Of a stretch of DNA of 64,000 bases, positions 22,815 through 38,158 are shown piece by piece; position 1 is the stretch's first letter, and each line of letters starts with the position of its first letter. The position numbers were made by a program, and so were the translations under genes. The notes under the pieces are model-generated. The model was given only the letters and a program-made list of their open reading frames with translations, was not told the DNA's origin and did no database searches. Source of the DNA: Corallococcus exiguus (GTDB lineage: Bacteria > Myxococcota > Myxococcia > Myxococcales > Myxococcaceae); contig NZ_JAAAPK010000002.1 of NCBI RefSeq assembly GCF_009909105.1, positions 477,827-541,826 of the forward strand. The letters run 5' to 3'.

Positions 22815-22837
22815 GAGCGCGGTGAACGCTACCCGCT

Positions 22838-23344: not shown

Positions 23345-23441
23345 GGCCGTGCTCCTGGGGTTCCTGCTTGCAGTATGCAAGCGGTCCAAATACGGTTCAA
23401 CCCGTTGTGAAACGCAAGTGGTCGAAAGGAGAGGTCCGACG

Positions 23442-24101
23442 ATGTCGCTCGCGGTCTACGGTCACTATTTCTCTTCGTACACGCAGAAGGTGCTCATCGC
23501 GCTGTATGAGAACGGCACGTCCTTCGAGTTTCGAAGTATCAGCCCGGAGACACCGGAGCATTCAGCCGAATGGCTGCGCCGCTGGCCGCTGCGCAAGTTC
23601 CCGCTGCTGGTGGACGGTGACCGTCAGGTCGTCGAGACGAGCATCATCATCGAGTATCTCCAGCTGAAGCATCCCGGGTCGGTGCGCCTGCTGCCCGAGG
23701 ATCCGCTGGCCGCGCTGGACGTGCGGTTCCTCGACCGCTTCTTCGACCTGCACGTCATGAACATGGTCCAGCACGCCGTGGACGGCGCGCTGACGGGGGA
23801 CCCCGTGAAGCGCCAGGACGGGATGAAGCTGGCGGTGGAGAAGCTGGAGCGCGCCTACGGTTGGATTGAAGGCCAGCTGGGCGGCAGGACCTGGGCCGCG
23901 GGCAACGACTTCACGCTGGCTGACTGTGCGGCCGCGCCGTCCTTGTTCTACGCGGATTGGACGCACCGGATTCCCGAGTCATGTCCCCAGCTGCGCGCCT
24001 ATCGCGCGAGGTTGCTCGCGCGTCCGTCCGTGGCTCGGGCGGTGGATGGAGGGAGGCCATACCGCCCGCTCTTCCCGCTGGGAGCGCCGGACCGGGATTG
24101 A
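23442..24101 (+). CDS. Glutathione S-transferase
   Basis: N-terminal thioredoxin-like GST fold (SSYTQKVLIALYENG...FPLLVDGD...ETSIIIEYL) and a C-terminal helical domain. Divergent from the HxlR regulator. Confidence 0.75.
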   Translation: MSLAVYGHYFSSYTQKVLIALYENGTSFEFRSISPETPEHSAEWLRRWPLRKFPLLVDGDRQVVETSIIIEYLQLKHPGSVRLLPEDPLAALDVRFLDRFFDLHVMNMVQHAVDGALTGDPVKRQDGMKLAVEKLERAYGWIEGQLGGRTWAAGNDFTLADCAAAPSLFYADWTHRIPESCPQLRAYRARLLARPSVARAVDGGRPYRPLFPLGAPDRD

Positions 24102-24108
24102 GATGGGG

Positions 24109-25860
24109 TCAAGGCCGCGGGGGCGTGGAGACCGCGGCCATGATGTATCGGGGCAGGAGTTCCTCGCGGAACTTCCGCCAGAGGGCGACGTGGTTGTAGT
24201 TGCCCGCCGTGAACAGCACGACGAGGTCCAGCTCCGGGACGACCATCACCAGCTGGCCACCGTTGCCGCTGGCTTCGTACTGCGAATACACACGGCCGCC
24301 GACGCGCAGGTCATGGCGCCACCACGTGTAGCCATAGGTTCGTCCGTCCGGCATCGTCGCCTGGTTCGCGACGGAGCGTTCCACCCAGCGCTGGCTGACC
24401 ACGCGCTTTCCGTTCCAAGTGCCACCGGAGAGGTAGAGCTGCCCGAGCTTCAGGGCATCGCGCGGGCGCATGTAGATGCCGCCGCCGAGGTACTGCTCGC
24501 CGTCGGGCATCAGGTCCAGGTGGTAGCCGCGCATCTGGAGGGGCGTGGCGACGTTCTTCGTGAAGAACTCGGGGATCCAGGTGCGGGTGGTGTTGCGGAG
24601 GACGCCGCCCAGCAGGTTGATGTTCGCGGAGCAGTACACGGCCTTCCCGTCGCCGGGAGCGCGGACCATGGGGAGGTCCAGCGTGTACTTGTACCAATCC
24701 GGTACGGAGTCCTCGAACCGGTCCTCGTTGCCGGGTGAATCCGGATTGTCGTCGTCACAGGCCAGGCCCGTCGCCATGGTCATCAAGTGCGCGACGGTGA
24801 GCTTGCGCTTGCGCGCATCCAGGTTGGAGAGCTTGCCCTTGTACTCGGGGAAGAGTGAGGCGACGGGCGTGTCCACGGTGAAGGGGGCACCCTGGTCCAG
24901 GGCAATGCCAGTCAGCAGGGACGCGTAGGACTTCGAGGAGGACCGCAGGTCGTGGGGGCGCTCCTTGTCGAAGCCCTGGAAGTACTCTTCGACGATGAGC
25001 TTTCCATGGCGCGCGATGAGCAGGCCCTGGATGGCGGGGACTGACTCTGGGCTCGGTTCCTGGTCGAGGATGCGCTGCACGAGCTGCTGGAGCGGCTGGA
25101 CGTCCATGCCGACGTCGGCAGGGGATGCCGTGGTCCATCCGTCGTCCTCCGCGATGGGCTTCTGGTAGGCGTAGGGGCCTGGGGCGGGCGTGCGGGAGTG
25201 GAGGCCCACGGCCTGCGAATGGTCCCGGCGGGTGAAGTCGAACGTCGTATCGAAGGGAGGGTAGGGGAGCGACAGCCGTCCGGACTGCGCGTCGAACGTG
25301 CCTTCGATCTGGGTGTCGCCCTTGGTGGACGTGAGCCGGACCGTGCGGCCCTGGAGGTCGACACGGAAGAGCATCCGGTTCCCGAAGTTCCGCTCCGGAT
25401 TGCGAATGAACGCTGTCACGGAGCCGTCAGGCTGCTTCTGGACGACGAGGTACAGCGAGAACCGGTCCTCCAGCGGAGCCACCGTGCCGCGCCAGACACC
25501 CGGCTGAAGTGTGCGCAGTTCCACCGGACTGGCGAACTTCATCCCGCTCATGAGCACGCGCGGCTGGATCCAGTGGCCGGTGATGCTCTGCCCATTCTCC
25601 GCCAACGTCGCTCGGAGTTCGCCTCCTGAGAAGACGACGGAAACCTTCCGGTTCTCAACCCGCGCAGGAACATCGAATCCGGCGATGCGCGCGCGCCAGG
25701 TGTTCCCTTCCCGAACCAGCGTCAGTTCGCCTCGGACTTGAGGACCCAGGACGCGCTCACTGCCCCAGATGCCCACCAATTGCTCGGCTGGAATGGAAAC
25801 AGCGCCGACATGGACAGGGAGCAGCGCCAGCAGAAGCCCAAGGAAGCGGTAACGGGTCAT
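24109..25860 (-). CDS. Serine hydrolase, beta-lactamase/PBP4-like family, secreted
   Basis: Signal peptide. The SSSKSY motif (SxxK) sits inside a beta-lactamase-like domain, downstream of an N-terminal beta-rich region. Confidence 0.7.
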   Translation of the reverse strand: MTRYRFLGLLLALLPVHVGAVSIPAEQLVGIWGSERVLGPQVRGELTLVREGNTWRARIAGFDVPARVENRKVSVVFSGGELRATLAENGQSITGHWIQPRVLMSGMKFASPVELRTLQPGVWRGTVAPLEDRFSLYLVVQKQPDGSVTAFIRNPERNFGNRMLFRVDLQGRTVRLTSTKGDTQIEGTFDAQSGRLSLPYPPFDTTFDFTRRDHSQAVGLHSRTPAPGPYAYQKPIAEDDGWTTASPADVGMDVQPLQQLVQRILDQEPSPESVPAIQGLLIARHGKLIVEEYFQGFDKERPHDLRSSSKSYASLLTGIALDQGAPFTVDTPVASLFPEYKGKLSNLDARKRKLTVAHLMTMATGLACDDDNPDSPGNEDRFEDSVPDWYKYTLDLPMVRAPGDGKAVYCSANINLLGGVLRNTTRTWIPEFFTKNVATPLQMRGYHLDLMPDGEQYLGGGIYMRPRDALKLGQLYLSGGTWNGKRVVSQRWVERSVANQATMPDGRTYGYTWWRHDLRVGGRVYSQYEASGNGGQLVMVVPELDLVVLFTAGNYNHVALWRKFREELLPRYIMAAVSTPPRP

Positions 25861-25881
25861 GGTCTGCTATTCATACGTCTC

Positions 25882-26979
25882 GTGACATCCCACGTCGGCA
25901 AATACCAGCGCATCCGCCTGCTCACCGAAGGCATCATCGAGGATCATCTGGCCAAGACTGCTGGCCCGCAGGGCGTCGAGAAGACGCTGGTGCTCCAGTG
26001 CCTGCGCTCGGACATGGCCGAGCAGGTGGATTTCCCGGAGATGTTCCTCGACACGGCGAGGGACGCCGCCCGGCTCACTCACCCGCACCTCGCGAAGGTC
26101 TTCGATTTCGGTGAAGCGGACGGCACGTATTTCCTAGCCAGGGAGCACATCGATGGGCCTGGTCTGCGCAGGGTGATCAAGCACGTGGCGGCCGAGCGGA
26201 TGACCCTGCCGGCGACCCTGTGCGCGCGCATCATCTCGCAAGCCTGCGAGGGGCTCGCCTATGCCCACGACCTCACCGACCCCAAGACGAGCCAGCCGCT
26301 GCGGCTCATCCACCGCTGCATCCGGCCGTACAACATCCTCTTGTCGCGCCAGGGGGAGACCCAGGTGGTGGACTTCGGCATCGACCATTTCCGGGCGCGG
26401 TGGACCCCCCAGCACCACATCCCCGATATGAGCAAGTACAGGTACATGGCGCCCGAGGAGATCAGGGGCGTGCCGGTGGACCGGCGGGTGGACGTCTACG
26501 CGCTGGGTCTGGTGCTCTACGAACTGCTCACCACGCGCAGGCCCTTTGAATCCACGTCCGACTGGGACTTGTTTCGGGCCGTCGTATCCGAGCCCATCGT
26601 GCCCGCCGAGCAGCACCGGCCGGACCTGCCCGATGCCCTTCGATCCATCCTCGCCCGGGCGCTCGCGAAGGATCGGGATCAGCGCTACCCGGACTGTCAC
26701 GCGTTCCGGAAGGACCTGGAGGATTTCATCCGCTCGGTGGGTGAGCCGGTGACCCCGCGGCAGGTGGCCCAGCTCGTCCAGCAGGTCTCTCCGAGCGACG
26801 ACCCGACCGCCATCGCCCCGGCTCCGGACGGCCCGGAGAGCCAGGCACGGCCCCGCGTGGGACGAGGCTGGATCCTCGCGGCGGCAGTCGGCCTGGCGGT
26901 CCTGCTCGGAGGCGGCGCCCTGCTCTGGAAGATGGGCGCCGCGCCAGAACCCGGGAAGGTTCGCGCTACTCCACCGTGA
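25882..26979 (+). CDS. Pseudokinase: Ser/Thr protein kinase-like domain lacking catalytic residues, with C-terminal TM helix
   Basis: The kinase-fold landmarks are present (DFG in VVDFGID, APE in YMAPEE, RYPDCHAF). The Gly-loop is degenerate (LTEGIIEDHL), the VAIK Lys is replaced (TLVLQCL) and HRD reads HRC (HRCIRPYNILL). The in-frame GTG at 25882 was chosen because the ORF-track start at 25738 overlaps the upstream gene. Confidence 0.65.
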   Translation: MTSHVGKYQRIRLLTEGIIEDHLAKTAGPQGVEKTLVLQCLRSDMAEQVDFPEMFLDTARDAARLTHPHLAKVFDFGEADGTYFLAREHIDGPGLRRVIKHVAAERMTLPATLCARIISQACEGLAYAHDLTDPKTSQPLRLIHRCIRPYNILLSRQGETQVVDFGIDHFRARWTPQHHIPDMSKYRYMAPEEIRGVPVDRRVDVYALGLVLYELLTTRRPFESTSDWDLFRAVVSEPIVPAEQHRPDLPDALRSILARALAKDRDQRYPDCHAFRKDLEDFIRSVGEPVTPRQVAQLVQQVSPSDDPTAIAPAPDGPESQARPRVGRGWILAAAVGLAVLLGGGALLWKMGAAPEPGKVRATPP

Positions 26980-28423
26980 GCAGGAGCTGGGCAGATGCTG
27001 GATGGCCCGTCACCGCAAGGACGCGAGACTCCTCTTTGGTCTGCCACTGCCACTCTTTGCCCTGCGACTGCCAGGAGCATGGCTCGACGGTGATGGTCAG
27101 CGGTCCTGAGCCCTCGCCCCGGGGCTTGAAGGTCACCTCCAGCTCCGCGGTGGCCCCTCCCTCCAGTCCGGCGGTAACGCCCACGACGTTCACGCGGAGC
27201 TCCTCCACCATCGGGAGTGGCTGACCGCGATACCGCACGCTCACGTCCACCACGCGAGCGCCGACGAGCACCCCGGACACCCGGATCCGCACCGCCTCAC
27301 ACGCGGTCCCGTCATTGCGCACCACCGCCCGCCACGTCTCAGTCACGGGCGAGGACACGGTCAGCGGCGCCGAGGTGTACTCGGTCCAGTGGATCGCGGG
27401 CGTCTTGTAGCCCACGTGCATGAGCGGCGCGCCCGGGCTCACCGGACGGTTCGAGGCGTCGAGGCGCAAGGGGTGTCCGGGCTCAGCGGTGAGCAGGAAG
27501 AGCGCGTCACTGTCCTCGGGGCCCACCCACCACCGATCAGCCCCCGCGGGCGTCACGGACACGAAGCGGGGCCATTCCCCCGCGAGCGTCTCCATCACCT
27601 GGAGCCCGGGCAGGGACACCAGGAGGACCTTGTCCTGGACGAAGAGGAGCGCCCGGTCCGCGTCGAGGACGCACACCCCGGCACCGCCCCAGGTCAGTTC
27701 ATCCGCATCGTCTTCATCGTCCTCATCATTCGCCTCCGGGATGGAGGCGAGCAGGGTGCCGTCGAGCGCGAAGTGGAGGAGCACCGTCTGCCGGTAGTTG
27801 ATGACGAGCAGGAGGAGCACGCCGTGAGGAGTGGCCTGGGCCCGCCAGATGTCCTGCTCATGGCCCGGCTCCACCTGGAGCGCGCCCTCTGGCTGAGCTG
27901 CCCCCGCGCGGAGCACGTAGACGCGGCCCCGGCCCTTCTCCACGACGGTGATGCCAAAGGGGCTCGTGTCGAGGAACGCCCCATCGGGAGACTGACGGTG
28001 GGGGCGCCCCTCGCTATATCCGTACCCGTGCGTGGCGCGCACGGGCCTGGGCAAGGTCATGGGCTGCCACTGCTGCCCGGACTCATCGGTCGTGAAGAGG
28101 GTGGTCATCTTGAGGGCGCCGTCCACCACCGTTCCAATGAGCCGGTCCCCATCGGAGATGAGATCGAAACATTCCTTCGGGATGGCATGGACGGGAGCGC
28201 TCGCGCCGGCCCCCACGGAGAAGACACGCCGATCCCCGCTCCCCACCCAGACGTCCTTTGCCTCGTCGAGCGCGGCGAGCACCACCGGCGCGGACGGATA
28301 CTCCGGCACGTCTCCGCCTACCTCCCGGCGCACGCCTTCGGCTCCGTGGAAGACGATGAGCCGATGCGGTCTGAGATCGAACAACCACTGTCCATGGGCC
28401 AGAAGACGGCGTCTCGGGTGCAT
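26966..28423 (-). CDS. Hypothetical protein (485 aa), convergent with the pseudokinase
   Basis: Long ORF with balanced composition and no recognisable motifs. It contains an acidic NDEDDEDDADE stretch and several WxG repeats. Confidence 0.5.
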   Translation of the reverse strand: MHPRRRLLAHGQWLFDLRPHRLIVFHGAEGVRREVGGDVPEYPSAPVVLAALDEAKDVWVGSGDRRVFSVGAGASAPVHAIPKECFDLISDGDRLIGTVVDGALKMTTLFTTDESGQQWQPMTLPRPVRATHGYGYSEGRPHRQSPDGAFLDTSPFGITVVEKGRGRVYVLRAGAAQPEGALQVEPGHEQDIWRAQATPHGVLLLLVINYRQTVLLHFALDGTLLASIPEANDEDDEDDADELTWGGAGVCVLDADRALLFVQDKVLLVSLPGLQVMETLAGEWPRFVSVTPAGADRWWVGPEDSDALFLLTAEPGHPLRLDASNRPVSPGAPLMHVGYKTPAIHWTEYTSAPLTVSSPVTETWRAVVRNDGTACEAVRIRVSGVLVGARVVDVSVRYRGQPLPMVEELRVNVVGVTAGLEGGATAELEVTFKPRGEGSGPLTITVEPCSWQSQGKEWQWQTKEESRVLAVTGHPASAQLLLTVE

Positions 28424-28453
28424 GGTTCTGCATCATGCCCGCTAACGCCGGGA

Positions 28454-29066
28454 TCAGTTGAGTTGAAGGAAGGAGAGGCAGTGGCGGAACCAAGCCGCGA
28501 GCTTCGCGAGCGGAGTGCCCGCGCGTAACTGCCTCACCGTCTGTGCCAGGTCCTCAATGGCCCGAGGCGCAAGCCGACGAAGCTGCCGCTTCAGGTCTGC
28601 CCACCACAGCTCGATGGGATTGAAGTCGGGGCTGTAGGTGGGCAGGTACACCACGCAGGCGCCAACGGCTTCGACCGCTTGGCGCACACCGGCCACTTTG
28701 TGGGCACCCAGGTTGTCCATCAGCACCACATCGCCTGGATGGAGCCAGGGGCAAAGCCGCTGGCGGACGAAGCGCACGAAGATGCGGCCATTGATGGCTC
28801 CTCGGTGAGTCACCAACTTGGGCCGGCAGCCCACGCGGATGGCCCCCACGAGCGTCAAGGTCGTCCAGCGGCCTCCAGGACGCACGCCTCGGGCGCGTTG
28901 GCCCACAGGAGCCCAGCCGTACTCGCGCGCCATGGAGGTATGACAGAAGGACTCGTCGAGGAAGACGAGCCGCCGCACGTCCACGACACTCAGGAGCGCG
29001 GCGAGGACGCGCCTGCGCCAGAGGTTATGAGGCGCGTCGCGCTCGCAGGCGGTGAAGGACTTTTCT
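28454..29066 (-). CDS. IS630 transposase OrfB (DDE_3 catalytic part), in -1 frame relative to OrfA
   Basis: ...QEKSFTACERDAPHNLWRRR...LVFLDESFCHTSMAREYGWAPVGQRA...LMDNLGAHK...YLPTYSPDFNPIELWWADLK is the Tc1/IS630 DDE signature. The frame switch is needed near AAGAAAAGT (+ strand ~29060-29070). Confidence 0.75.
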
Positions 29067-29418
29067 TGTGTGAGAAGCCCAGTCGATGCAGAGCCCTCTG
29101 CATGGAGGGGCGGCTGGTGACGATGCCCGTGCGGGCCGTCAACGCGGCCATCAGTTCGCGCACCGTCGCGTCCGGCTTCTGAGTCACCAGTCGCTTGATC
29201 ACGATGGTCACCTTGCCCCGAATAGGCGAGAAGTTGCCGCCACCTTTGGGACGCGGCACGACGTCTCCTGTCTCTCGGTACAGCCGCAGGACGCGGCTGA
29301 CCGTCGCCTCGCCAATGCCCAACAGGTGGGCAATTTGCGCATATGCCAAGCCCTCGTCGTGGCAGTCTCTCACGATGGCTCGTCGCAGCTTCTCCGGGGT
29401 GGGATGCCCTTCGCTCAT
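28990..29418 (-). CDS. IS630 transposase OrfA (HTH DNA-binding part)
   Basis: LRRAIVRDCHDEGLAYAQIAHLLGIGEATVSRVLRLYRETGDV... is the typical IS630 N-terminal HTH. Confidence 0.8.
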   Translation of the reverse strand: MSEGHPTPEKLRRAIVRDCHDEGLAYAQIAHLLGIGEATVSRVLRLYRETGDVVPRPKGGGNFSPIRGKVTIVIKRLVTQKPDATVRELMAALTARTGIVTSRPSMQRALHRLGFSHKKSPSPPASATRLITSGAGASSPRS

Positions 29419-29478
29419 CCCCAGAGAAGATCAAACCTCGACGATCGCGTCAAACGAGCCCCGGGTTAGTCACGAGTG

Positions 29479-30348
29479 CTACAGTGTATACTCGGTTTCG
29501 ACAGTGATGCTGCCAATGTAGTTCGAGAAGGTTGTGCATTCTTCGTCATCTAAGTCATCTTTTGTGTAACTTGGGTTGGAGACGTAAAAATGCACTTTGT
29601 CGCCGACGCATTCCATTGTGATATCGCCGGCGCTGTTCTGAGTGATTGTCTTGTAGCCCGTGTAGTAGTTCAGATGTCTTGACGGCGCTTCGCCGAGCAC
29701 GATTATCTGGGGGTCGAGCTGCTCTAACCATGAGTCTGGAATCTTGCCGGAGTCGCGCCCATGATGGGCGGCGAAGACCACGGTCGTCTTCTCAAGCTTG
29801 ATGCTGTCGGCGATGTTCTTCATGAATTCTGTCTCGAGATCGCCGAGCCACATTATGGAAGCACCGTTCTGAACAGAGTAGCGAATTACTGCTGATGTGT
29901 TGTTGTAGCTCTCGCCCGCATCGCACGATGCCAGTGCTTCTTGGAAGTGCTTGTTTGATGTGTCAGGCCAAAGGATGTTGATGCCGGAGGAAGATCGTTC
30001 GTTGTCGTCCAGGTTCATCCATTTTCGACTACATCCCTTGTAGATATAGAATGCCTTGTCGCTATCTCTGAGTTGGCAGTAGCGCTTAAACGATACGGTC
30101 TCCTCGTCCTTGGTGGCCTGATTTTTCACTACGTAAAAATTCCAGATCGGCATTGCTTTATCAAGTAGCTCAATGCCTCCGAAGTGATCTTGATCGGGGT
30201 GAGTGCAGATGAACCGGGTTATTTTCTTGCCTGCTGATTTTTTCTTGATTTCACTGATGATGCCATCGGCATTGTTTCGGTTAGATTGCAGTCGATGATG
30301 GTGAAGTTGTCGCTGTTGTGTTTTATGTAAAACATGTCACCATTGCCG
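29479..30348 (-). pseudogene. MBL-fold metallo-hydrolase gene disrupted by a frameshift (or sequencing indel) near its 5' end
   Basis: The downstream frame is ...RFICTHPDQDHFGGIELLDKAMPIWNFYVV...VVFAAHHGRDSG, which carries the HxHxDH metal site. The first 30 codons (MSIIKSFSVGNGDMFYIKHNSDNFTIIDCNL) lie in another frame upstream and end at a stop after ~20 more codons. The frames change around + strand ~30230-30260. GC is around 45%. Confidence 0.6.
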
Positions 30349-30490
30349 ACGGAGAAGCTTTTGATGATGGACATTTGTCCTCTCTGTTGTGGCTGGGGTG
30401 TGATTTGGCTGGGTGTGAAGTGTTTGTGGTCGGCGATTGCTTCGTGTGTTGCCTGTGTGTGTGCTTAAGATGGTCGCTTTTTTGTCCTCT

Positions 30491-30563
30491 TGTGGCTGTG
30501 GCTGTGGCTGTGGCTGTGGCTGTGGCTGTGGCTGTGGCTGTGGCTGTGGCTGTGGCTGTGGCT
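30491..30563. repeat. Perfect hexanucleotide microsatellite (GGCTGT)~12
   Basis: It reads tgtggctgtggctgtggctg... directly in the sequence. It is intergenic within the low-GC island, between the MBL pseudogene and the next membrane protein gene. Confidence 0.95.
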
Positions 30564-30783
30564 TGGTTCGGGTAGATGACGTTGTGTCTGGTGTGTGTGT
30601 TGTCGGTCGCCGTGCTTCCCGGGTGGACGAGGCCTTGCTGCATTAGATGGCAGTCGCATCCCTATTCGTGAGCCTTCCGGCGGAAAGTCGATCTTGAGCC
30701 GCGCGCTCTTTGATTGAAGTTCTCGGTGTCTGCCCGGTCGATAGAGAAGGCGTAGACTTGGCTCCTGCGCTTGTTCGGGCGGA

Positions 30784-31440
30784 TCAGGGTTTCGGAGGCA
30801 ACGAGGGAGTCGCGGAGGCTGGGGCTAGTGTCTTCAGTTCCATCGCAAGGAAGACCTCATAGAGGGCCTGTTCAGCGAGTGGTTGATAGCGACGGTAACG
30901 GCTGTAGAACGCAACAGCAGTTCCCACGCTAAGCGCTATAATGGCGGCAACCTGCCAGGCCTGAAGGCTGTTATATCTCTCTCCTAGCGTAATCGCGCCC
31001 CCAACAACCGCTGCGACCATGAGCCCTCGCGACATGTCGCGGAGAGCCACGAACTTGTCGTAGACTTCCCGCTTGCCCTCAACTTGCGTCAAGCAAATGC
31101 CCAGCAGCGCAGAGTCCGGTACCTGCACCTGGGCAGCGGACAGTCGCTGTCCTACGATGCGTGCCACTTGCTCTCGGAGTGCGTTACAGGTCTTGTAGTC
31201 TTTGTTGGCTGCACGAGGCGGATCGATTCTTCGAGTGACTAGGTCGCCGACGCCCTGGTTGAGAATTCCTGCAATGTAGGCAAAGACGACCAGCGATTCT
31301 GTGCTGGATAGATTGATGTGCCTCTGGAGGGTGACTCCCCATGGCCAGATTGCCATGATCACGGATCCGGGCACTAGGACGGCCAAAAGCTCGTAAAACC
31401 AGCTCTTGAGGACATTGAAGACTTTCGAAATGAAGTCCAT
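30784..31440 (-). CDS. Hypothetical membrane protein (3 predicted TM helices), low-GC island
   Basis: MDFISKVFNVLKSWFYELLAVLVPGSVIMAIW... The TM helices are near residues 17-37, 148-165 and 172-190. No motif recognised; AT-rich codon usage. Confidence 0.5.
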   Translation of the reverse strand: MDFISKVFNVLKSWFYELLAVLVPGSVIMAIWPWGVTLQRHINLSSTESLVVFAYIAGILNQGVGDLVTRRIDPPRAANKDYKTCNALREQVARIVGQRLSAAQVQVPDSALLGICLTQVEGKREVYDKFVALRDMSRGLMVAAVVGGAITLGERYNSLQAWQVAAIIALSVGTAVAFYSRYRRYQPLAEQALYEVFLAMELKTLAPASATPSLPPKP

Positions 31441-31490
31441 GGAATCTCAGACTTGAGAGGAGAGAAGGTGGACTCCTGCTGCTGCGCTGA

Positions 31491-32447
31491 TCAAGGCAGC
31501 CCTCTATCGCTAGCAATCCTAGCTACGTCAGCCAGTTCTCCTGCGTCAGGCAGACCGCCATCGGCGTCCACCTGACGTGACCGCGCAGCGGAACTCCCGG
31601 TGGACCCTGGAGAGGCGATGGTGATGGCCAAGGGTGGTGGCTTGAGTTCCGGCCTGATCTGAGCTGAAAGCAGCACAAGCCCTGCGCCAAGGCCAATAAG
31701 GAACACAAGAACGGTGCCCTTACGTGGTGCAGGTGCAGAGAGACCTTCCTCCTGCTGTTGGGCAGGTGCTGTAGCGACAGGCGCAGGCGTAGCATGGGCG
31801 GCGAGCGCCTGCGAAGTCCGGGCCGACGTTGGTGGAACAGGCGGCGTTTTCACCGGTGCAGCGGTCTCAGCGGAGGCGGGCGAAATTTGGACCGGTGCGG
31901 TACTCGTGAGCGGTGTTGTTACCACCGCAGCGAACGCAGTGGATGCGTGAGGCTCTTGTGCAGGCGTAGCAGGAGTGGACGCAGGCGGCGTGGGCGCCGA
32001 TCGCGCTGCTTGAAGGGTTGTGTCTAGCGAAGCTGTAGTCGGGGCAGAGAGGACGGACGGTGGCTGAGCAGACGCGGCAGATGCGATGGGCGCAGGTGGC
32101 GGTTGTGCAGCGACGAGCGTCGGGGAAATGTTTTTGTCTTCCAACGTAACAGGGCGCGGGGCCACAGACTCGAAGTCGTGCACCAACCCTGCCAAGCCCA
32201 CGACGGCACAGCCCAAGGCGATGGCTAAAATTGCGGCCTTGAGAAACATCACCTCTTGCAGTGCGGAAAGGCTCACGACGGCGTAGAGGTGTGAGACCAA
32301 CTCTGGACTTGCCGCTTCTTGTTCCCCAAGCGCCGTCAGCGCCCGGGATGCCCCACTGCTAAGCCGGGATGCAATGCATATAAAAGAGACCAGGATGAAG
32401 ACGGCAAGCATCACGCTGGGCCATCGCTTAGGAGCCATTTCTATCAT
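31491..32447 (-). CDS. Hypothetical membrane protein with long Pro/Ala/Thr/Ser-rich low-complexity region
   Basis: Two N-terminal TM helices, a ~150-residue PAT-rich spacer (PPPAPIASAASAQPPSVLSAPTTAS...), then a third TM helix (VLVFLIGLGAGLVLLSA) and a C-terminal tail. Confidence 0.5.
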   Translation of the reverse strand: MIEMAPKRWPSVMLAVFILVSFICIASRLSSGASRALTALGEQEAASPELVSHLYAVVSLSALQEVMFLKAAILAIALGCAVVGLAGLVHDFESVAPRPVTLEDKNISPTLVAAQPPPAPIASAASAQPPSVLSAPTTASLDTTLQAARSAPTPPASTPATPAQEPHASTAFAAVVTTPLTSTAPVQISPASAETAAPVKTPPVPPTSARTSQALAAHATPAPVATAPAQQQEEGLSAPAPRKGTVLVFLIGLGAGLVLLSAQIRPELKPPPLAITIASPGSTGSSAARSRQVDADGGLPDAGELADVARIASDRGLP

Positions 32448-33143
32448 GTGTTGCCTGGTTGCATTGGTGCCATGCGCAGTGGTTTCGTAGTGTTGGGCTC
32501 TTGCGAGTTGAAGGCGAGCCTATGTGGGCGTCAAGAGCCGTACCCTTTCTAGTGGGCTGTTGAAGATGTCTGTGTTGGAGTCCTGAGAGTCGCCTCGCAT
32601 GTGCGCGTGGCTGCTTTATGGATCTGTCTGTGGCAGCGGAGAGTCGGTAAATTTAGACGCATGCGGCCGTCGGTCGCGTCATCCTCAGTAGGTTGCATGC
32701 GGCTCCGAAGAAATAGGCGGCCAGTTGCGTTCTCGGTTCGCCTTTAAAGATTGTCTTGCGGATGCCGCCCTCCGTCTTCATTTAGTCCCAAATCTCCTCG
32801 ACTCATTTGTGTTCCCGCTGGCCGGTAGCCCGCGCTCGCTGGCGTAGGCATGCCGATGGCAGAGCGGCGTCGAGCGCTGGCTTTCTGTGGAACGAGCTGC
32901 GTGACGGCCAGATGGTAACAATCCGCCACGAGGGCCTGCGTGTTGTTAGAGTTTACGCTACGAGCTCACTTGGACTCGTTCTCCCGCTTGGAGTGTCAAT
33001 GTCTTCCGGTAATTCCGCCACTTTGGCAGTCCGATTTAATTCAGGCTGGCCGTGGCGTTTGCGAGCCGCCTCGGGGGTTCTAATCAAGCTGACGCGGAAG
33101 TACTTGTTAATGCGTTGTGTGACACTCCACGGCCTTCGCGGCC

Positions 33144-33512
33144 TTACTTCTGATACCAGTTTGTCCCGCGCTGCGGACTGACGTATGGCCCCTCCCTCAG
33201 TACGGTGTGGCCGTCGAAGCTCACAATGCAGGTCGTCCGGTCCACGAATTGAACCGAGGCGATCCGTGCTTCAGCACAAACAATGGGGCTGGAGGCGCCA
33301 TGGCCGCACCTGTGAAATCGAACCTCTTCACCTCGCTGGGCAGCCGCTTCACAGAGACGCCCGACCTCACTGGTCGTGGTGATGAGCTTGACCCGGTCAG
33401 CGTCAATCCAATCATTCATCCAGGTGCGATTTGGGTCGTCTTTGTGGTGGACAACCAAATGGAGCATGCGTTCCTCGGTCTGAGCGGCTTTGGCCATACG
33501 AGGGGTTGTCAT
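33144..33512 (-). CDS. Hypothetical small protein (122 aa)
   Basis: Balanced, non-repetitive composition (MTTPRMAKAAQTEERMLHLVVHHKDDPNRTWMNDWID...). Intermediate GC (~57%), so it may belong to the island. Confidence 0.4.
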   Translation of the reverse strand: MTTPRMAKAAQTEERMLHLVVHHKDDPNRTWMNDWIDADRVKLITTTSEVGRLCEAAAQRGEEVRFHRCGHGASSPIVCAEARIASVQFVDRTTCIVSFDGHTVLREGPYVSPQRGTNWYQK

Positions 33513-33634
33513 GCCAGGGCCTACGGAAAAAATTAATGCCTCGAACGGGGGATTGACACCCGTACGAAAACGCCGCCTCGCTTCCGGACTGACCGGAAGC
33601 GGGCGGCGTGGGCACTGCCTGAAGTCGCGAAGAA

Positions 33635-35233
33635 CTACCGGCGCTTGAGCGCCGCGTCCGCGTGCTTCTCCATGAACTCCGAATACGGGCCGTTGAAGTC
33701 GAGCACTTCCTTGCCCGCCTCCAGGCTCCAGATGCGGGTCGCGACCTCGGAGATGAGCTCCTGGTCGTGCGTCACGCAGATGACCGTGCCGTCGAACTTG
33801 GACAGGCCTTCCGCCAGCGCCGCGATGGACTCCAGGTCCAGGTGGTTCGTCGGCTCGTCGAGGATCAACACGTTGTCCTGCGTGATCATCAGCTTGGACA
33901 ACAGCACTCGCACCGTCTCACCACCGGAGAGCGTGTCCGTCGCCTTCATCCGCTCCTCACCCGAGAAGAGCATCCGGCCCAACACGCCTGAAATCTCCTC
34001 GTTCGTCAGCTTCTCGCTGATCTCGCGCAGGTAGCCGAAGCACGTCGTGCCCTTGTGGATGACGCCGTGGTGGTCCTGCGGCAGGTAGCCCACCGTCGCC
34101 TGGTGGCCCCAGGTGATGGTCCCCGCGTCCGGCTCCAGCTGGTTGGCCAGCATCTTCACCAGCGTGGACTTACCCACGGCGTTGCGGCCAATCACGCAGA
34201 TGCGCTCACCCTTGCAGACCAGGCCCGTGAACGGCTTGATGACCGGCACCCCGTCGAAGGACTTCTTCAGGCCCTCGAACATCAGCGTCTGACGACCGCT
34301 GATCACCTTCTGGTCGAACCGGATGAACGGCCGCGCGATGTTCGAGCGCTTCAGGTCCTCCGTCTTCAGCTTGTCGATCTGCTTGATGCGGCTCTGCACC
34401 TGCGACGCTCGCGTACCGGCGTGGAAGCGCGCCACGAAGTCCTGCAGCTGGGCGATCTTCTTCTTCTTCTCTTCCGTCTCGGACTCGACCCGGGTCCGCA
34501 GCTGCGACTTCTGCCGGACCATGTCGTCGTAACCACCCGTGTACTGGATGATGGTCTCGTAATCGATGTCCGCGATGTGCGTGCAGATGGAGTTCAGGAA
34601 GTGCCGGTCGTGGCTGATGGTGATCAGCACGCCCTCGTACACATGCAGGAAGTTCTCCAGCCAGCGGATGGAGTCGATATCCAGGTTGTTCGTGGGCTCG
34701 TCGAGCAGCAGCCCTTCCGGCTTGCCGAACAGCGCCTGCGCGAGCAGCACGCGCAGCTTCAGGCCGCCCGTCAGCTGGCGCATGGGCTCTTCGTGGAAGG
34801 ACTCCTCGATGCCCAGACCGGCCAGCAGCGTGGCCGCGTCGCTCTCCGCCGAATAGCCGTCTTCTTCCGCGATGACGCCTTCCAGCTCACCCAGCCGGTT
34901 GCCGTCCTCCTCGGTGATGTCGGACTTGGCGAGGAGCTTGTTCTTCTCGTCCATCGCCGCCCACAGGTGGCGGTTGCCCATCAGCACCACGTCGATGACG
35001 CGGTCGCTCTCGTAGCGGAAGTGGTCCTGGCGCAGGATGCCCAGCTTCCGCGGGCGGATGATGTCGCCCATGTCCTGCTCCTCGTCTCCCGCGAGGATCT
35101 TCATGAACGTGGACTTGCCGGCCCCGTTCGGACCGGTCAGGCCGTAGCGGCGGCCCGGCGAGAAGGCGACGTTGACCTCCTCGAACAGCTTCTTGGGCCC
35201 ATAGGCCTTGGAGACGTTGATGACGTTGAACAT
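33635..35233 (-). CDS. ABC-F family ATPase (two tandem ABC domains, no TM domain; YbiT/Uup/EttA-like)
   Basis: Two Walker A boxes (GPNGAGKST, GRNAVGKST) and two signature motifs (LTGGLKLR, LSGGETVR), separated by a charged linker (ESETEEKKKKIAQLQ). The start MFNVINVSKAY was chosen over the ORF-track extension. Confidence 0.85.
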   Translation of the reverse strand: MFNVINVSKAYGPKKLFEEVNVAFSPGRRYGLTGPNGAGKSTFMKILAGDEEQDMGDIIRPRKLGILRQDHFRYESDRVIDVVLMGNRHLWAAMDEKNKLLAKSDITEEDGNRLGELEGVIAEEDGYSAESDAATLLAGLGIEESFHEEPMRQLTGGLKLRVLLAQALFGKPEGLLLDEPTNNLDIDSIRWLENFLHVYEGVLITISHDRHFLNSICTHIADIDYETIIQYTGGYDDMVRQKSQLRTRVESETEEKKKKIAQLQDFVARFHAGTRASQVQSRIKQIDKLKTEDLKRSNIARPFIRFDQKVISGRQTLMFEGLKKSFDGVPVIKPFTGLVCKGERICVIGRNAVGKSTLVKMLANQLEPDAGTITWGHQATVGYLPQDHHGVIHKGTTCFGYLREISEKLTNEEISGVLGRMLFSGEERMKATDTLSGGETVRVLLSKLMITQDNVLILDEPTNHLDLESIAALAEGLSKFDGTVICVTHDQELISEVATRIWSLEAGKEVLDFNGPYSEFMEKHADAALKRR

Positions 35234-35248
35234 GGCGGCGGCTTGTAA

Positions 35249-36685
<1,437 letters not shown>

Positions 36686-36794
36686 AGTCCGGGCGGGTGG
36701 CCCTCCGCCCGCCCTCCGGCCGGGTTGTGATGGGCCGCACGCGGGCGGCGGTGCGGCGGGACGTGGCGGGTTAGCCTGCGGTGCTACCTGCCGC

Positions 36795-37979
36795 ATGGAC
36801 CCGCGCGTCGCCACCCTCCTGAGTCACGTCCGCTCGAGCGCGGAGAACCGGCCCGGCGTGTACCGGTTCTTCGGTCCAGCCGGGGAGCTGCTCTACGTGG
36901 GCAAGTCCGTGCGGGTGCGCACGCGGCTCCTGTCGTACTTCCGCGCGGACGAGGGCGAGAAGGCCTGGGAGATCGTCGCCCAGGCGCACCAGGTGGAGTG
37001 GGAGTACACGGCCAGCGAGTTCGCGGCGCTGCTCCATGAGTTCCGGCTGATCAAGAGCCACCGGCCCCTCTACAACGTGGAGCACAAGCGCGACCGCGCG
37101 CACTGCTTCCTCCAACTCACGCGCGAGGCCGTGCCCCGGCTGCGCGTGGTGGGCCAGCCCGGTGGCGGTGGGCGCGCGGAGTACTTCGGGCCCTTCCATG
37201 GCCGGCACACCATGGTGGACGTGGTGCGCGCGGTGAACGACCTGCTGGAGCTTCGCGACTGCCCGTCCGAGACGCCCATGCGGCTGGCGGATCAGATCCA
37301 GCTCTTCCCCCTGAAGGACGACCCGCGGTGCATGCGCGGGCAGACGGCGCGGTGCCTGTCGCCGTGCGCGGGCGGGTGCACGACGGCGGAGTACCTGGCG
37401 CAGGTCGCGCTGGCTCGGGCGTTCCTCAACGGCGAGTCGGACCGGCCGCTGGTCATCCTGCGCGAGCGCATGGCGATGGCGGCGCGGCGGCTCCAGTTCG
37501 AATACGCGGCGGAGCTGAGAGATCGCGCGGAGCGGCTGGAGAACGTGCAGGCGTGGATCGTCGAGCTGGGGCGCACGCTGCGGCGGCTGTCGCTGGTCTA
37601 CACGGTGCGCGGGCACGGCAGGGAGGACCGCACGTACGTACTGCGGCGCGGGCGGATCCGCGCGGAGGTGCCCACGCCCCGGACGACGGAGGAGCAGGCG
37701 GCGCTGGACGCACGCGTGCGGGACATCTTCGACGTGCCGGAGCCCGAGGCGATTGGCCTCCGCGCGCAGGAGGCCCAGGAGGTGATGCTCGTCGCGAAGT
37801 GGTTCCGCCTGCACCCGGCGGAGCTGGATGCGACGGTGCCTGCCCCCGCGCGGGCCGGGAGCGACGAGCCCTTCGAGGAGGCCGCGGAGGCGCGGGCCGC
37901 GCTCGCTCGCACGCTGGAGCGCACCGTGGAGGGGCCGGACGAACCGGAGCCCGACGTCGCCTCCGAGCCGGTGGGGTGA
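36795..37979 (+). CDS. GIY-YIG nuclease / UvrC-homologous excinuclease (Cho-like)
   Basis: GIY-YIG core (PGVYRFFGPAGELLYVGKS...RLLSYF), a UvrC-family region and a UVR-like helix (EYAAELRDRAERLENV). It lacks the UvrC C-terminal RNaseH/HhH part. Confidence 0.6.
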   Translation: MDPRVATLLSHVRSSAENRPGVYRFFGPAGELLYVGKSVRVRTRLLSYFRADEGEKAWEIVAQAHQVEWEYTASEFAALLHEFRLIKSHRPLYNVEHKRDRAHCFLQLTREAVPRLRVVGQPGGGGRAEYFGPFHGRHTMVDVVRAVNDLLELRDCPSETPMRLADQIQLFPLKDDPRCMRGQTARCLSPCAGGCTTAEYLAQVALARAFLNGESDRPLVILRERMAMAARRLQFEYAAELRDRAERLENVQAWIVELGRTLRRLSLVYTVRGHGREDRTYVLRRGRIRAEVPTPRTTEEQAALDARVRDIFDVPEPEAIGLRAQEAQEVMLVAKWFRLHPAELDATVPAPARAGSDEPFEEAAEARAALARTLERTVEGPDEPEPDVASEPVG

Positions 37980-38158
37980 TGACGCCGGACATCACCCCGC
38001 GCACGGCTGTCATCAGCGGTGCGGGCCTTCGTTGACGAGGACTGGCCCACGGGCCTTGGAAACACAGGGGTTTGGCGTTCACCCCAGGAATCACGAGCGC
38101 TGGCACGCGCCGTGCTCATGGGACAGGCATCCCCGCTGTTTCCACGAGGCCCTGTCCC

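What the first reader, a model, noticed from the sequence alone, without database searches (positions are those of the whole stretch)
28443..33600. Low-GC (~45-50%) horizontally acquired island bordered by an IS630 element
GC drops sharply from ~70% to below 50% immediately after the IS630 right end and recovers near the ABC-F gene. The island encodes the following: (i) an MBL-fold hydrolase split by a frameshift; (ii) a perfect hexanucleotide microsatellite; (iii) two unrelated multi-TM proteins, one with a 150-residue Pro/Ala/Thr spacer; (iv) a ~700-bp stretch (32450-33140) with no ORF over 125 aa; (v) a small soluble protein. None of these has an assignable function. The arrangement (hydrolase, membrane proteins, IS border, foreign composition) is typical of defence or phage-exclusion cargo, but no known system matches. 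This is the best place in the window to look for something undescribed.
Basis: partly seen in the sequence, partly recalled or inferred. Interest (0 to 1): 0.65.

Follow-up and report, generated by a model that had tools for sequence, protein, structure and literature searches.

The report
Decayed membrane-protein plus nuclease defence module
This low-GC stretch of a Corallococcus exiguus chromosome is foreign DNA sitting in a spot where related species keep anti-phage systems, and its main cargo is a broken copy of an already catalogued but untested candidate defence pair (a four-helix membrane protein plus a metallo-beta-lactamase-fold nuclease), so it is a useful example rather than something new.

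Summary
Window 29435-33634 has GC 0.565 against 0.687 for the whole window. The frameshifted MBL gene, the perfect (TGTGGC)12 repeat, two membrane proteins, a 696-bp gap with no long ORF and a small soluble protein are all present.

Comparison with other Corallococcus species places the insert at about 28445-33545, between a conserved 485-aa gene and the ABC-F gene. In relatives this interval holds other cargo: Shedu, PD-Lambda-1 with PDC-M04A, and Hhe with a SIR2 protein. It is a defence hotspot.

"No known system matches" is wrong. The MBL protein matches PADLOC PDC-M48B over its full length (E 8e-152). The 218-aa membrane protein belongs to a small family related to Csx27 and PDC-M48A. Members of that family lie within one gene of MBL genes in 6 of 8 informative contexts. 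On a Blastomonas plasmid one overlaps a 72%-identical MBL gene.

The 318-aa protein is a myxobacterial accessory partner of the 218-aa protein. The IS630 element predates the cargo, because remnants lie at the same edge in C. exercitus.

The MBL gene carries a 1-nt deletion upstream of its catalytic motif, so the module is probably dead. PDC-M48 itself has never been tested. I rate this a variant of a known candidate kind, of modest interest.

The parts
26966..28423 (-). Conserved 485-aa gene of unknown function. It is the native left border of the variable hotspot.
   Evidence: 84-86% amino-acid identity in L007, L008, L009 and L013. Nucleotide synteny ends at 28448/28449. GC3 is 0.85. No Pfam, PADLOC or NCBIfam hit.
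28445..29466 (-). IS630-family insertion sequence with its transposase split over two reading frames (HTH ORF 28990-29418; DDE_3 frame 28454-29434). It is an old resident of the hotspot edge.
   Evidence: NCBIfam transpos_IS630 124.6 bits (cut-off 100) and DDE_3 at 8.6e-35. Imperfect terminal inverted repeat, 15/20 matches, with TA on both sides (28443-4 and 29467-8); 13 of 500 shuffles score as well. Remnants of the same IS lie at the same edge in L008 and L013.
29479..30374 (-). MBL-fold (ComEC-type) hydrolase pseudogene of the PADLOC PDC-M48B family. A 1-nt deletion between 30276 and 30277 lies upstream of the H59-x-D-x-D-H64 motif.
   Evidence: PDC-M48B E 7.8e-152, residues 1-293 of a 296-position profile. 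4175 homologues; the best 120 listed are 72-87% identical. Deletion seen against three homologues. Truncated ORFs present in NCBI and Logan. Gene GC 0.48.
30491..30563 (.). Perfect hexanucleotide microsatellite (TGTGGC)12, read as GCCACA on the coding strand. It lies in the 410-nt CA-rich spacer between the 218-aa gene and the MBL gene, 117 nt upstream of the MBL start.
   Evidence: TRF: 12.2 copies, 100% matches. It is one of only two perfect microsatellites in 1.4 Mb of fetched DNA. An independent short-read contig ends inside it.
30784..31440 (-). TM218, a 218-aa protein with 2+2 transmembrane helices and a conserved cytoplasmic helical insert. It belongs to a small family related to Csx27 and PDC-M48A and is the probable partner ('A' component) of the MBL protein.
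   Evidence: 13 close homologues and 165 representatives at E<=1e-3. Csx27 E 7e-4 for the window protein itself. 51 of 148 family members hit Csx27 (best 1.7e-12) and 12 hit PDC-M48A (best 7.8e-7). The family HMM scores the C. perfringens PDC-M48A 23.8 bits and the Blastomonas MBL partner 83.6 bits, against a shuffle maximum of 3.9. AF2 pLDDT 83.5, all-helical.
31491..32447 (-). TM318, a 318-aa membrane protein with a 146-residue Pro/Ala/Thr/Ser-rich spacer. It is the conserved upstream partner of TM218 in myxobacteria.
   Evidence: Homologous N- and C-terminal membrane segments lie directly upstream of TM218 homologues in Hyalangium rubrum (L075, 189 aa, no spacer) and in L087 (no spacer). 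A 334-aa gene sits 50 nt upstream in a JGI contig. No family hit.
32448..33143 (.). 696-bp stretch without a long ORF. It is probably a promoter/leader region plus degraded sequence.
   Evidence: Longest stop-free stretch is 119 codons. No credible Rfam match. RNA folding z-scores -0.75 and +0.10. No blastn match in plasmids or phages.
33144..33467 (-). Small soluble protein (107 aa from the conserved Met; the open frame extends to 33512). It is an orphan of a different module and may have a PUA-like fold.
33635..35233 (-). ABC-F ATPase gene. It is the native right border of the hotspot.
   Evidence: NCBIfam PRK15064 at 2.4e-183. 95-98% identical in most Corallococcus species fetched (one draft C. 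terminator contig, L044, 91%). Nucleotide synteny resumes at 33536-33568. GC3 is 0.92.

Best explanation
The tract is the current cargo of a defence-island hotspot in Corallococcus, lying between a conserved 485-aa gene and an ABC-F gene. Its core is a three-gene module read on the minus strand: TM318, then TM218, then the MBL gene.

TM218 is a four-helix inner-membrane protein of the Csx27/PDC-M48A superfamily. The MBL gene encodes a cytoplasmic ComEC-type metallo-beta-lactamase-fold hydrolase of the PDC-M48B family. Together they form a myxobacterial variant of the PADLOC candidate system PDC-M48.

Inferred mechanism:
- The membrane protein, here with the accessory TM318, holds or regulates the metal-dependent nuclease at the inner membrane.
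- When foreign DNA enters or the membrane is perturbed, the nuclease degrades DNA.
- The membrane protein may also act as a channel or pore that arrests the infected cell.

In this genome the module is probably inactive. A 1-nt deletion truncates the MBL protein before its catalytic His/Asp motif. A 410-nt spacer carrying a microsatellite separates the two genes, which overlap or lie within about 40 nt of each other in other genomes.

The IS630 copy is an older, decaying resident of the hotspot edge. The 107-aa protein and the 696-bp gap are leftovers of other cargo.
For: **Shown: hotspot.**
- Synteny with four Corallococcus genomes stops at 28448/9. Synteny with all of them resumes at 33536-33568.
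- The interval in relatives holds Shedu SduA (1.6e-132); PD-Lambda-1 (1.6e-153) with PDC-M04A; Hhe/PDC-S37 with SIR2_2; and an AAA_21 ATPase-methyltransferase.
- None of TM218, TM318 or the small protein occurs in those loci.

**Shown: MBL identity.**
- PDC-M48B E 7.8e-152, full length.
- The N-terminal region also matches LmuA, RTasMBL, Avs1a and 6A-MBL models.
- The motifs H59-P-D-Q-D-H64 and H219-H220 are present in the reconstructed sequence.
- The gene GC is 0.41-0.53 and below that of the host locus in every Gram-negative and actinobacterial host examined.

**Shown: pairing of the MBL with a membrane protein.**
- The MBL gene is tightly coupled to a 160-250-aa protein with 2+2 TM helices in L005, L078, L079, L080 and L081.
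- The C. perfringens partner is PDC-M48A (3.7e-67).

**Shown: TM218 family link.**
- 9 of 13 close members and 12 of 148 extended members hit PDC-M48A. 10 of 13 and 51 of 148 hit Csx27.
- An HMM of 147 family representatives, with the window sequence excluded, scores the Blastomonas partner of a 72%-identical MBL at 83.6 bits over its full length. It scores PDC-M48A at 23.8 bits. The shuffle maximum is 3.9.
- MBL genes lie within one gene of TM218-family genes in the window, L075, L082/L088, L085, L090 and L092/L093. That is 6 of 8 informative contexts. One other context is a CBASS operon.

**Shown: frameshift.**

**Inferred.** Nuclease activity is inferred from the ComEC-type MBL fold and its use as an effector domain in Avs1, Lamassu and DRT models. 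Membrane coupling and the trigger are also inferred. The ssDNA-channel idea for Csx27-family proteins comes from Makarova et al. 2019, as summarised in PMC7642515 and PMC11662929.
Against: - PDC systems are explicitly untested candidates (bioRxiv 10.1101/2024.01.29.577857). No anti-phage activity is known for this pair.
- The window's TM218 does not itself reach any PDC-M48A model at E<1. The link is transitive, and for most members it covers only the N-terminal 60-70 residues. hhalign of the 13-sequence family alignment against one PDC-M48A sequence gives only 13% probability.
- The MBL gene shares nucleotide homology with the M. virescens copy only across the ORF itself (29474-30387). It may therefore have arrived separately from the TM pair.
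- The TM pair has a different GC (0.595) from the MBL gene (0.48).
- In Hyalangium the neighbouring MBL gene is convergent and belongs to a different subfamily.
- The 410-nt spacer is unlike the tight coupling seen elsewhere.
- No trigger, target or localisation has been tested.
Confidence: 0.6

Rival explanations
1. The adjacency is accidental. The hotspot has accumulated unrelated, decaying fragments: the MBL cassette, the TM pair, the orphan small gene and IS debris. No multi-gene system was ever assembled here.
For: - Nucleotide homology to the M. virescens MBL gene stops within 5-13 nt of the ORF ends.
- GC differs between segments: 0.48, 0.595 and 0.58.
- A 410-nt spacer with a microsatellite, a frameshift, a 696-bp gap with no long ORF and a split transposase all indicate decay.
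- L007 shows duplication and IS debris at the same hotspot.
Against: - TM218-family genes lie within one gene of MBL genes in 6 of 8 informative contexts from unrelated organisms.
- A full-length TM218-family member overlaps a 72%-identical MBL gene on a Blastomonas plasmid.
- The gene order and strand here (TM then MBL) match the C. perfringens PDC-M48.
Confidence: 0.2
2. The module serves DNA uptake or processing rather than immunity. In this reading a Csx27-family channel plus a ComEC-like nuclease imports and degrades DNA. This follows the hypothesis of Makarova et al. 2019 and the NCBI label 'ComEC/Rec2 family competence protein'.
For: - NCBI names the 224-aa ORF ComEC/Rec2 family.
- TIGR00361 ComEC_Rec2 aligns to residues 49-227.
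- Secondary sources report that Csx27-family proteins are predicted ssDNA channels encoded with natural-transformation components.
Against: - The ComEC match is 27 bits against a cut-off of 190, and the competence channel domain is absent.
- The locus sits in a hotspot filled with anti-phage systems in relatives.
- Family members are embedded in CBASS, 6A-type ubiquitin-like and restriction-modification contexts.
- The MBL gene's partners also include patatin and PIN-like effector-type proteins.
Confidence: 0.1
3. The system is intact and active. Either the frameshift is an assembly error or it is bypassed, and the microsatellite works as a phase-variation switch on MBL expression.
For: - The deletion lies in a short A run.
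- The perfect 12-copy repeat lies 117 nt upstream of the MBL start.
- The only other perfect microsatellite in 1.4 Mb of fetched DNA lies 71 nt from the M. virescens MBL gene.
Against: - The 224-aa truncated ORF is recorded in NCBI and Logan on three contigs, and the 51-aa ORF in both sources on one contig.
- A hexanucleotide repeat cannot shift a reading frame.
- At 73 bp the repeat is too long to sit between the promoter hexamers.
- No promoter-like site was found on the minus strand here.
Confidence: 0.07

Closest known systems
PADLOC candidate system PDC-M48 (Payne et al., bioRxiv 10.1101/2024.01.29.577857; PADLOC-DB v2)
   Same: The B component matches over its full length (E 7.8e-152). 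A small membrane protein with 2+2 TM helices lies upstream on the same strand, as in the C. perfringens plasmid, where that protein is PDC-M48A. The TM218 family is distantly related to PDC-M48A.
   Different: TM218 itself falls below the PDC-M48A models, so PADLOC would not call the system here. An extra membrane gene (TM318) precedes it. The genes are 410 nt apart with a microsatellite between them. The MBL gene is frameshifted. PDC-M48 has no experimental support.
Csx27 family of four-helix membrane proteins (type VI-B1 CRISPR accessory; Smargon et al., bioRxiv 10.1101/092577; Makarova et al. 2019, FEMS Microbiol Lett fnz088, known to me and cited in PMC7642515)
   Same: The Csx27 model hits TM218 (7e-4) and 51 of 148 family members (best 1.7e-12). 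Both have four predicted TM helices. Neighbourhoods include ComEC-like MBL genes and E2/E1/JAB proteins in L082 and L092, matching the reported link to competence and ubiquitin-like genes.
   Different: There is no Cas13b or CRISPR array next to it. The similarity is concentrated in the N-terminal hairpin. Csx27 is known only as a repressor of Cas13b interference, and its membrane localisation was not confirmed.
6A-MBL anti-phage system (ubiquitin-like E2/E1/JAB protein plus MBL protein; listed among known jumbo-phage defence systems in bioRxiv 10.1101/2025.09.30.679545; review PMC13276650)
   Same: It uses an MBL-fold protein with the same N-terminal region (NCBIfam 6A-MBL_enzyme 1e-9 on residues 7-69). 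Distant TM218 homologues are encoded beside 6A-type MBL and E2/ThiF/JAB genes.
   Different: The score is 38 bits against a cut-off of 220. No E2/E1/JAB gene is present in the island.
MBL-fold effector proteins of AVAST type 1 (Avs1a), Lamassu (LmuA-MBL) and DRT (RTasMBL)
   Same: They share an N-terminal MBL region of about 60-100 residues (E 5e-10 to 1e-6). This suggests the same nuclease-type effector chemistry.
   Different: Only partial matches (Avs1a 37.7 bits against a cut-off of 420). No STAND NTPase, SMC-like LmuB or reverse transcriptase gene is nearby.
Chromosomal defence-island hotspots between conserved core genes
   Same: Fixed flanks with different defence cargo in each species (Shedu, PD-Lambda-1, Hhe, SIR2), low GC, and IS debris.
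   Different: No integrase, tRNA gene or flanking direct repeats. The turnover mechanism is unknown.

Membership tests
PADLOC PDC-M48 | B component: MBL-fold protein matching a PDC-M48B model | tested here: met
   PDLC04673, E 7.8e-152, residues 1-293 of 296 profile positions, on the frameshift-corrected protein.
PADLOC PDC-M48 | A component: small membrane protein matching a PDC-M48A model | tested here: inconclusive
   The window's TM218 has no PDC-M48A hit at E<1. However, 9 of 13 close relatives and 12 of 148 extended relatives do hit it (best 5.2e-7). The family HMM scores a true PDC-M48A at 23.8 bits against a shuffle maximum of 3.9. hhalign gives only 13% probability.
PADLOC PDC-M48 | Both genes adjacent, on the same strand and intact | tested here: not met
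   They are on the same strand and are neighbours, but 410 nt apart. The MBL gene has a 1-nt deletion before its catalytic motif.
PADLOC PDC-M48 | Demonstrated anti-phage activity | not testable with these tools
   The source paper calls the 145 PDC systems untested.
Csx27 family | Sequence match to the Csx27 profile and four TM helices | tested here: met
   Csx27 E 7e-4 (window protein) and 1.7e-12 (best family member); 51 of 148 members match. Hydropathy and the AF2 model give 2+2 hydrophobic helices.
Csx27 family | Encoded next to cas13b in a type VI-B1 locus | tested here: not met
   No large HEPN or Cas13b-sized ORF and no repeat array lie beside it.
6A-MBL system | MBL protein reaching the NCBIfam 6A-MBL_enzyme cut-off, and an E2/E1/JAB protein alongside | tested here: not met
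   38 bits against a cut-off of 220. No Prok-E2, ThiF or JAB domain is found in the island proteins.
AVAST type 1 | Avs1a equivalog score and a STAND NTPase partner | tested here: not met
   37.7 bits against a cut-off of 420. No NTPase ORF is present in the island.
ComEC/Rec2 competence protein | Competence membrane-channel domain plus MBL domain, reaching the TIGR00361 cut-off | tested here: not met
   27.1 bits against 190. Only the MBL part aligns, and the protein is 298 aa with no TM segment.
IS630 family insertion sequence | DDE_3 transposase reaching the family cut-off | tested here: met
   124.6 bits against a cut-off of 100. DDE_3 at 8.6e-35 plus HTH domains.
IS630 family insertion sequence | Terminal inverted repeats and a TA target duplication | tested here: inconclusive
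   15 of 20 matching terminal bases with TA on both sides. 13 of 500 shuffles score as well. The repeat finder reported no terminal pair.
Integrative island or prophage | Integrase, tRNA or att direct repeats, or phage structural genes | tested here: not met
   No tRNA gene. No flanking direct repeats. No integrase domain. No match to 50,697 phage records for the MBL protein or for 30375-33545.

The most novel reading that the evidence does not exclude
The myxobacterial TM318-TM218-MBL arrangement may be a distinct three-gene variant of an untested defence mechanism. In this reading a Csx27-like membrane complex couples a ComEC-type nuclease to DNA entering the cell, and the hypermutable microsatellite next to the MBL gene tunes its expression. 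Microsatellites sit beside the MBL gene in both C. exiguus and M. virescens. The frameshifted copy here would then be one 'off' state of a costly system.
Probability: 0.1. Interest if true: 0.6.

Novelty: new variant of a known kind. Interest (0 to 1): 0.35.

Why it matters
- **A defined hotspot.** The work delimits a defence hotspot in Corallococcus between the ABC-F gene and a conserved 485-aa gene. This hotspot can be mined across the many sequenced myxobacteria.
- **Three strands joined.** It connects the PADLOC candidate PDC-M48, the Csx27 membrane-protein family and ComEC-like MBL proteins. Until now these were linked only by prediction.
- **A testable pairing rule.** The 298-aa MBL protein is 72-87% identical across phyla among its closest homologues. 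Its partner is swapped among very divergent four-helix membrane proteins, patatin and PIN-like proteins. That gives a concrete, testable pairing rule for an uncharacterised system.
- **This copy is broken.** Experiments should use an intact relative rather than this locus.

Tried and rejected
- **Partners of the MBL gene against PADLOC and Pfam.** Patatin, the 253-, 293-, 228-, 244- and 251-aa partners and the M. virescens 216-aa protein gave no PADLOC hits. In Pfam they gave only a patatin hit and a weak PIN_3 hit.
- **Direct comparison with the M. virescens membrane protein.** BLASTP of TM218 against the M. virescens upstream membrane protein found nothing. The family HMM also scores it at background, 1.0 bit.
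- **Profile comparison with other MBL partners.** hhalign of the TM218 family against an alignment of five other partners was not significant.
- **ncRNA in the gap.** Rfam at gathering and at E<=1 gave nothing credible. Folding z-scores were -0.75 and +0.10.
- **Promoter and terminator scan.** Uninformative.
- **att-type direct repeats around the island.** None found.
- **tRNA genes.** None.
- **Prophage or plasmid origin of 30375-33545.** No blastn match.
- **Small protein.** The model is of low confidence (pLDDT 61.6), so the PUA-like fold hits are only a lead.
- **Literature.** 'PDC-M48' appears in no held paper. Makarova et al. 2019 could not be opened.
- **Reconstruction note.** My reconstructed MBL protein has T at residue 34, where the ancestral residue was probably N. 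This does not affect any result.

Full report
**1. The observation**

The window has GC 0.687. The tract 29435-33634 has GC 0.565, and its first 1.2 kb has 0.508, with a minimum of 0.453 at 30000-30399. Third-codon-position GC of the island ORFs is 0.58-0.66. For the flanking genes it is 0.85-0.94. The composition is therefore clearly foreign.

Only the MBL gene region is actually below 50%. The remainder sits at 0.55-0.65.

Every listed item is present:
- A split MBL-fold gene at 29479-30374(-).
- A perfect (TGTGGC)12.2 repeat at 30491-30563.
- Membrane-protein ORFs of 218 aa and 318 aa. The 318-aa protein has a 146-residue spacer that is 68% Pro/Ala/Thr/Ser.
- A 696-bp stretch with no stop-free run above 119 codons.
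- A small soluble ORF.
- An IS630-family transposase at 28454-29434.

**2. Organism, boundaries and setting**

TM218 is 100% identical to a Corallococcus exiguus protein. The ABC-F gene is 95-98% identical to that of most other Corallococcus species fetched (one draft contig 91%).

I compared window 22000-38000 by blastn with the syntenic loci.
- The right flank (ABC-F and tgt) is conserved from 33536-33568 onward in all of them.
- The left flank (the 485-aa gene and a kinase) is conserved up to 28448/28449 in C. aberystwythensis, two C. exercitus strains and C. carmarthensis.
- Between these points each genome has different DNA of 2.7-8.4 kb or more.
- None of it encodes TM218, TM318 or the small protein.

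The cargo in the relatives is as follows:

| Genome | Cargo in the interval | Support |
|---|---|---|
| C. exercitus AB043A | Shedu SduA | 1.6e-132 |
| C. exercitus SDU142 | PD-Lambda-1 plus a DUF3800 PDC-M04A protein | 1.6e-153 for PD-Lambda-1 |
| C. coralloides | 1785-aa Hhe/PDC-S37 helicase-nuclease, a second PD-Lambda-1-like gene by its N-terminal sequence (not scanned), and a SIR2_2 protein | |
| C. carmarthensis | AAA_21 ATPase-methyltransferase | |
| C. aberystwythensis | IS debris and a duplicated ABC-F 3' fragment | |

This is a defence-island hotspot.

There is no tRNA gene, no integrase and no flanking direct repeat.

**3. The IS630 element**

The transposase is split over two frames. 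The best terminal alignment gives ends at 28445 and 29466, with TA on each side and 15 of 20 matching bases. Thirteen of 500 shuffles score as well, so this is plausible but weak.

Fragments of the same IS lie immediately inside the same left junction in both C. exercitus strains. The IS is therefore older than the present cargo and did not bring it in.

Its right end lies 10 nt from the MBL stop codon.

**4. The MBL gene**

Correcting one missing base yields a 298-aa protein. That base is a deletion between 30276 and 30277, seen against three homologues.

The protein matches PADLOC PDC-M48B at E 7.8e-152 over residues 1-293 of 296 profile positions. Its first 60-100 residues give weaker matches to LmuA, RTasMBL, Avs1a and 6A-MBL models. 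All of these are far below their family cut-offs.

Distribution of the family:
- 4175 homologues were found. The best 120 listed are 72-87% identical and come from Myxococcus, Burkholderia, Azospirillum, Marinobacter and Sphingobium.
- Plasmid copies in Clostridium, Bacillus, Rhodococcus and Staphylococcus are 50-57% identical.
- There is no match in phage records.
- In Gram-negative and actinobacterial hosts the gene GC is 0.41-0.53, always below that of its surroundings.
- Nucleotide homology with the M. virescens copy (85%) covers only the ORF, 29474-30387.

The deletion precedes the H59-x-D-x-D-H64 motif. Translation therefore gives a 51-aa peptide, and the 224-aa internal ORF lacks that motif. 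The 224-aa truncated ORF is on record in NCBI and Logan on three contigs, and the 51-aa ORF in both sources on one contig. The frameshift is therefore very probably real.

**5. The partner rule**

In other genomes the MBL gene is tightly coupled to one variable neighbour:

| Partner | Position relative to the MBL gene | Locus |
|---|---|---|
| Patatin | 34-132 nt downstream | Burkholderia and L006 |
| PIN-like 293-aa protein | downstream | L002 |
| 160-250-aa protein with two N-terminal and two C-terminal TM helices | overlapping or within about 40 nt | L005, L078, L079, L080, L081 |

The C. perfringens partner is PDC-M48A (3.7e-67). PDC-M48 is therefore a membrane protein plus an MBL protein.

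The source paper describes the 145 PDC systems as untested candidates found by 'guilt by embedding'.

**6. TM218 and TM318**

*Family membership of TM218.*
- TM218 has 13 close homologues. A profile search finds 165 representatives at E<=1e-3 in 1.84 billion proteins.
- The window protein itself hits only Csx27 (7e-4).
- 9 of 13 close members hit PDC-M48A and 10 of 13 hit Csx27.
- Of 148 extended members, 51 hit Csx27 (best 1.7e-12), 16 hit the Cas13b-associated tm_4 model, and 12 hit PDC-M48A.

*Test with the window sequence excluded.* An HMM built from 147 representatives gave these scores:

| Target | Score (bits) |
|---|---|
| Window TM218 | 171.6 |
| Blastomonas gene overlapping a 72%-identical MBL gene (full length) | 83.6 |
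| C. perfringens PDC-M48A | 23.8 |
| Rhodococcus partner | 19.5 |
| Best of 159 shuffled controls | 3.9 |

*Genomic contexts of family members.*
- L082/L088: a 281-aa MBL gene overlaps the TM gene, followed by a 6A-type MBL gene and an E2/ThiF/JAB gene.
- L085: a 273-aa MBL gene lies 40 nt upstream, inside a restriction-modification/SNIPE island.
- L090: an MBL gene lies 38 nt downstream.
- L092/L093: a convergent 385-aa MBL gene plus a 747-aa gene, with type I RM-like and Mrr-like ORFs (read from their sequences, not scanned) upstream.
- Hyalangium rubrum: a convergent 418-aa MBL gene.
- L084: a CBASS operon.

With the window, that makes six of eight informative contexts with an MBL gene within one gene.

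*TM318.* Its membrane-spanning ends, without the Pro/Ala/Thr spacer, recur directly upstream of TM218 homologues in Hyalangium and in L087. A 334-aa gene lies 50 nt upstream of the homologue in a JGI contig. TM318 is therefore a lineage-specific accessory partner, and the spacer is a recent insertion.

*Structure.* The AF2 model of TM218 (pLDDT 83.5) is all-helical and has no informative PDB neighbour. The most conserved residues are C116, R124, Y127, K129, F130, A132, L133, R134, D135, R138 and G139. They lie in the soluble insert just before the third hydrophobic helix.

**7. The remaining pieces**

*Microsatellite.* It lies in a 410-nt CA-rich spacer, 117 nt upstream of the MBL start. A short-read contig identical to 30534-35374 ends inside it. 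In 1.4 Mb of fetched DNA the only other perfect microsatellite (unit 4-9 nt, at least 5 copies) is (AGGGC)6, which lies 71 nt after the M. virescens MBL gene. This is a curiosity that I could not take further.

*Gap.* The 696-bp gap has no Rfam match, no excess RNA structure and no similarity to plasmids or phages.

*Small protein.* It has three homologues of 105-107 aa. Two of them follow an HTH_3 + Peptidase_M78 gene and precede small ORFs and a TsiV-family gene. Here it lacks those neighbours. Its low-confidence model (pLDDT 61.6) resembles PUA-like domains such as Lon-N, YTH, ASCH, EVE and SRA. That is only a lead.

**8. How it most likely works**

*Shown.*
- The locus is foreign cargo in a defence hotspot.
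- The MBL protein is a PDC-M48B family member with ComEC-type metal-binding motifs.
- TM218 belongs to the Csx27/PDC-M48A superfamily.
- The two families recur together.

*Inferred.*
- The membrane protein, with TM318 in myxobacteria, anchors or gates a cytoplasmic metal-dependent nuclease.
- That nuclease attacks DNA when foreign DNA enters or the membrane is disturbed.
- The membrane protein may itself form a channel or pore.

The channel idea for Csx27-family proteins, and their link to competence-like and ubiquitin-like genes, was proposed by Makarova et al. 2019 (FEMS Microbiol Lett fnz088). I could not open that paper. I rely on my own knowledge of it and on summaries in PMC7642515, PMC11662929 and bioRxiv 10.1101/2021.11.02.466367.

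In this genome the module is probably dead because of the frameshift.

**9. Comparison, novelty and verdict**

The closest known entity is PADLOC PDC-M48. The B component is a clear member. The A component is related only at superfamily level. The genes are neither tightly linked nor intact.

It is not any of the following:
- A 6A-MBL system: 38 bits against a cut-off of 220, and no E2/E1/JAB gene.
- An Avs1 system: 37.7 bits against 420, and no NTPase.
- A ComEC competence protein: 27 bits against 190, and no channel domain.
- A type VI-B locus: no Cas13b.

I file it as a new variant of a known, still untested, candidate kind. It has a divergent A component and an extra membrane gene, and it is caught in a decayed state.

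The hotspot and the partner-swapping rule of the highly conserved MBL protein are the useful outputs. The window locus itself is ordinary for a defence island. Interest is 0.35.

Noticed in passing
L001 10968-10997 (Myxococcus virescens CP183923.1) and window 30491-30563: The only two perfect microsatellites (unit 4-9 nt, at least 5 copies) in 1.4 Mb of fetched DNA both lie next to copies of the same MBL gene. (AGGGC)6 lies 71 nt after the M. virescens gene, and (TGTGGC)12 lies 117 nt before the C. exiguus gene.
   Followed up: partly
L007 6894-7449 (C. aberystwythensis): A second, partial copy of the ABC-F 3' end (93% identical to window 33549-34100) lies inside the hotspot cargo, together with IS5-like and IS630-like ORFs (judged from their sequences, not scanned). 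The hotspot has been rearranged by duplication.
   Followed up: no
L086 (Logan ERR14335505 contig), equal to window 30534-35374: An independent short-read contig is 100% identical to the window and terminates inside the hexanucleotide repeat. The repeat breaks short-read assembly. The JGI contig carrying the 86%-identical TM218 homologue also appears to end right after that gene.
   Followed up: partly
L003 8001-10034 (Burkholderia pyrrocinia): The MBL and patatin pair sits directly after the gpD-like tail gene of a P2-like prophage. A Tae4/PAAR toxin cluster follows it. This is a prophage cargo position.
   Followed up: no
L006 8001-14425 and L082 2001-7755: MBL pairs lie beside 6A-type modules, each made of a 387-392-aa MBL protein plus a 754-762-aa E2/ThiF/JAB protein. 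L082 carries three different MBL-fold genes within 6 kb.
   Followed up: partly
L084 5882-9365: A TM218-family gene occupies the first position of a CBASS operon (SMODS cyclase, E2-CBASS, SAVED). This suggests the family can serve as a membrane effector or accessory of cyclic-nucleotide signalling systems.
   Followed up: no
window 31491-32447 versus L075 7416-7985 and L087 164-685: The 146-residue Pro/Ala/Thr/Ser spacer of TM318 is absent from the Hyalangium and L087 homologues. It is a recent low-complexity insertion. The TM pair has GC 0.595 here but 0.69 in those genomes.
   Followed up: partly
window 33144-33467 and L076/L077: The small protein has only three detectable homologues among 5.8 billion clusters. 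The 122-aa and 107-aa readings of its frame are not on record in the protein collection. In L076 and L077 it follows an XRE-HTH/Peptidase_M78 gene.
   Followed up: partly
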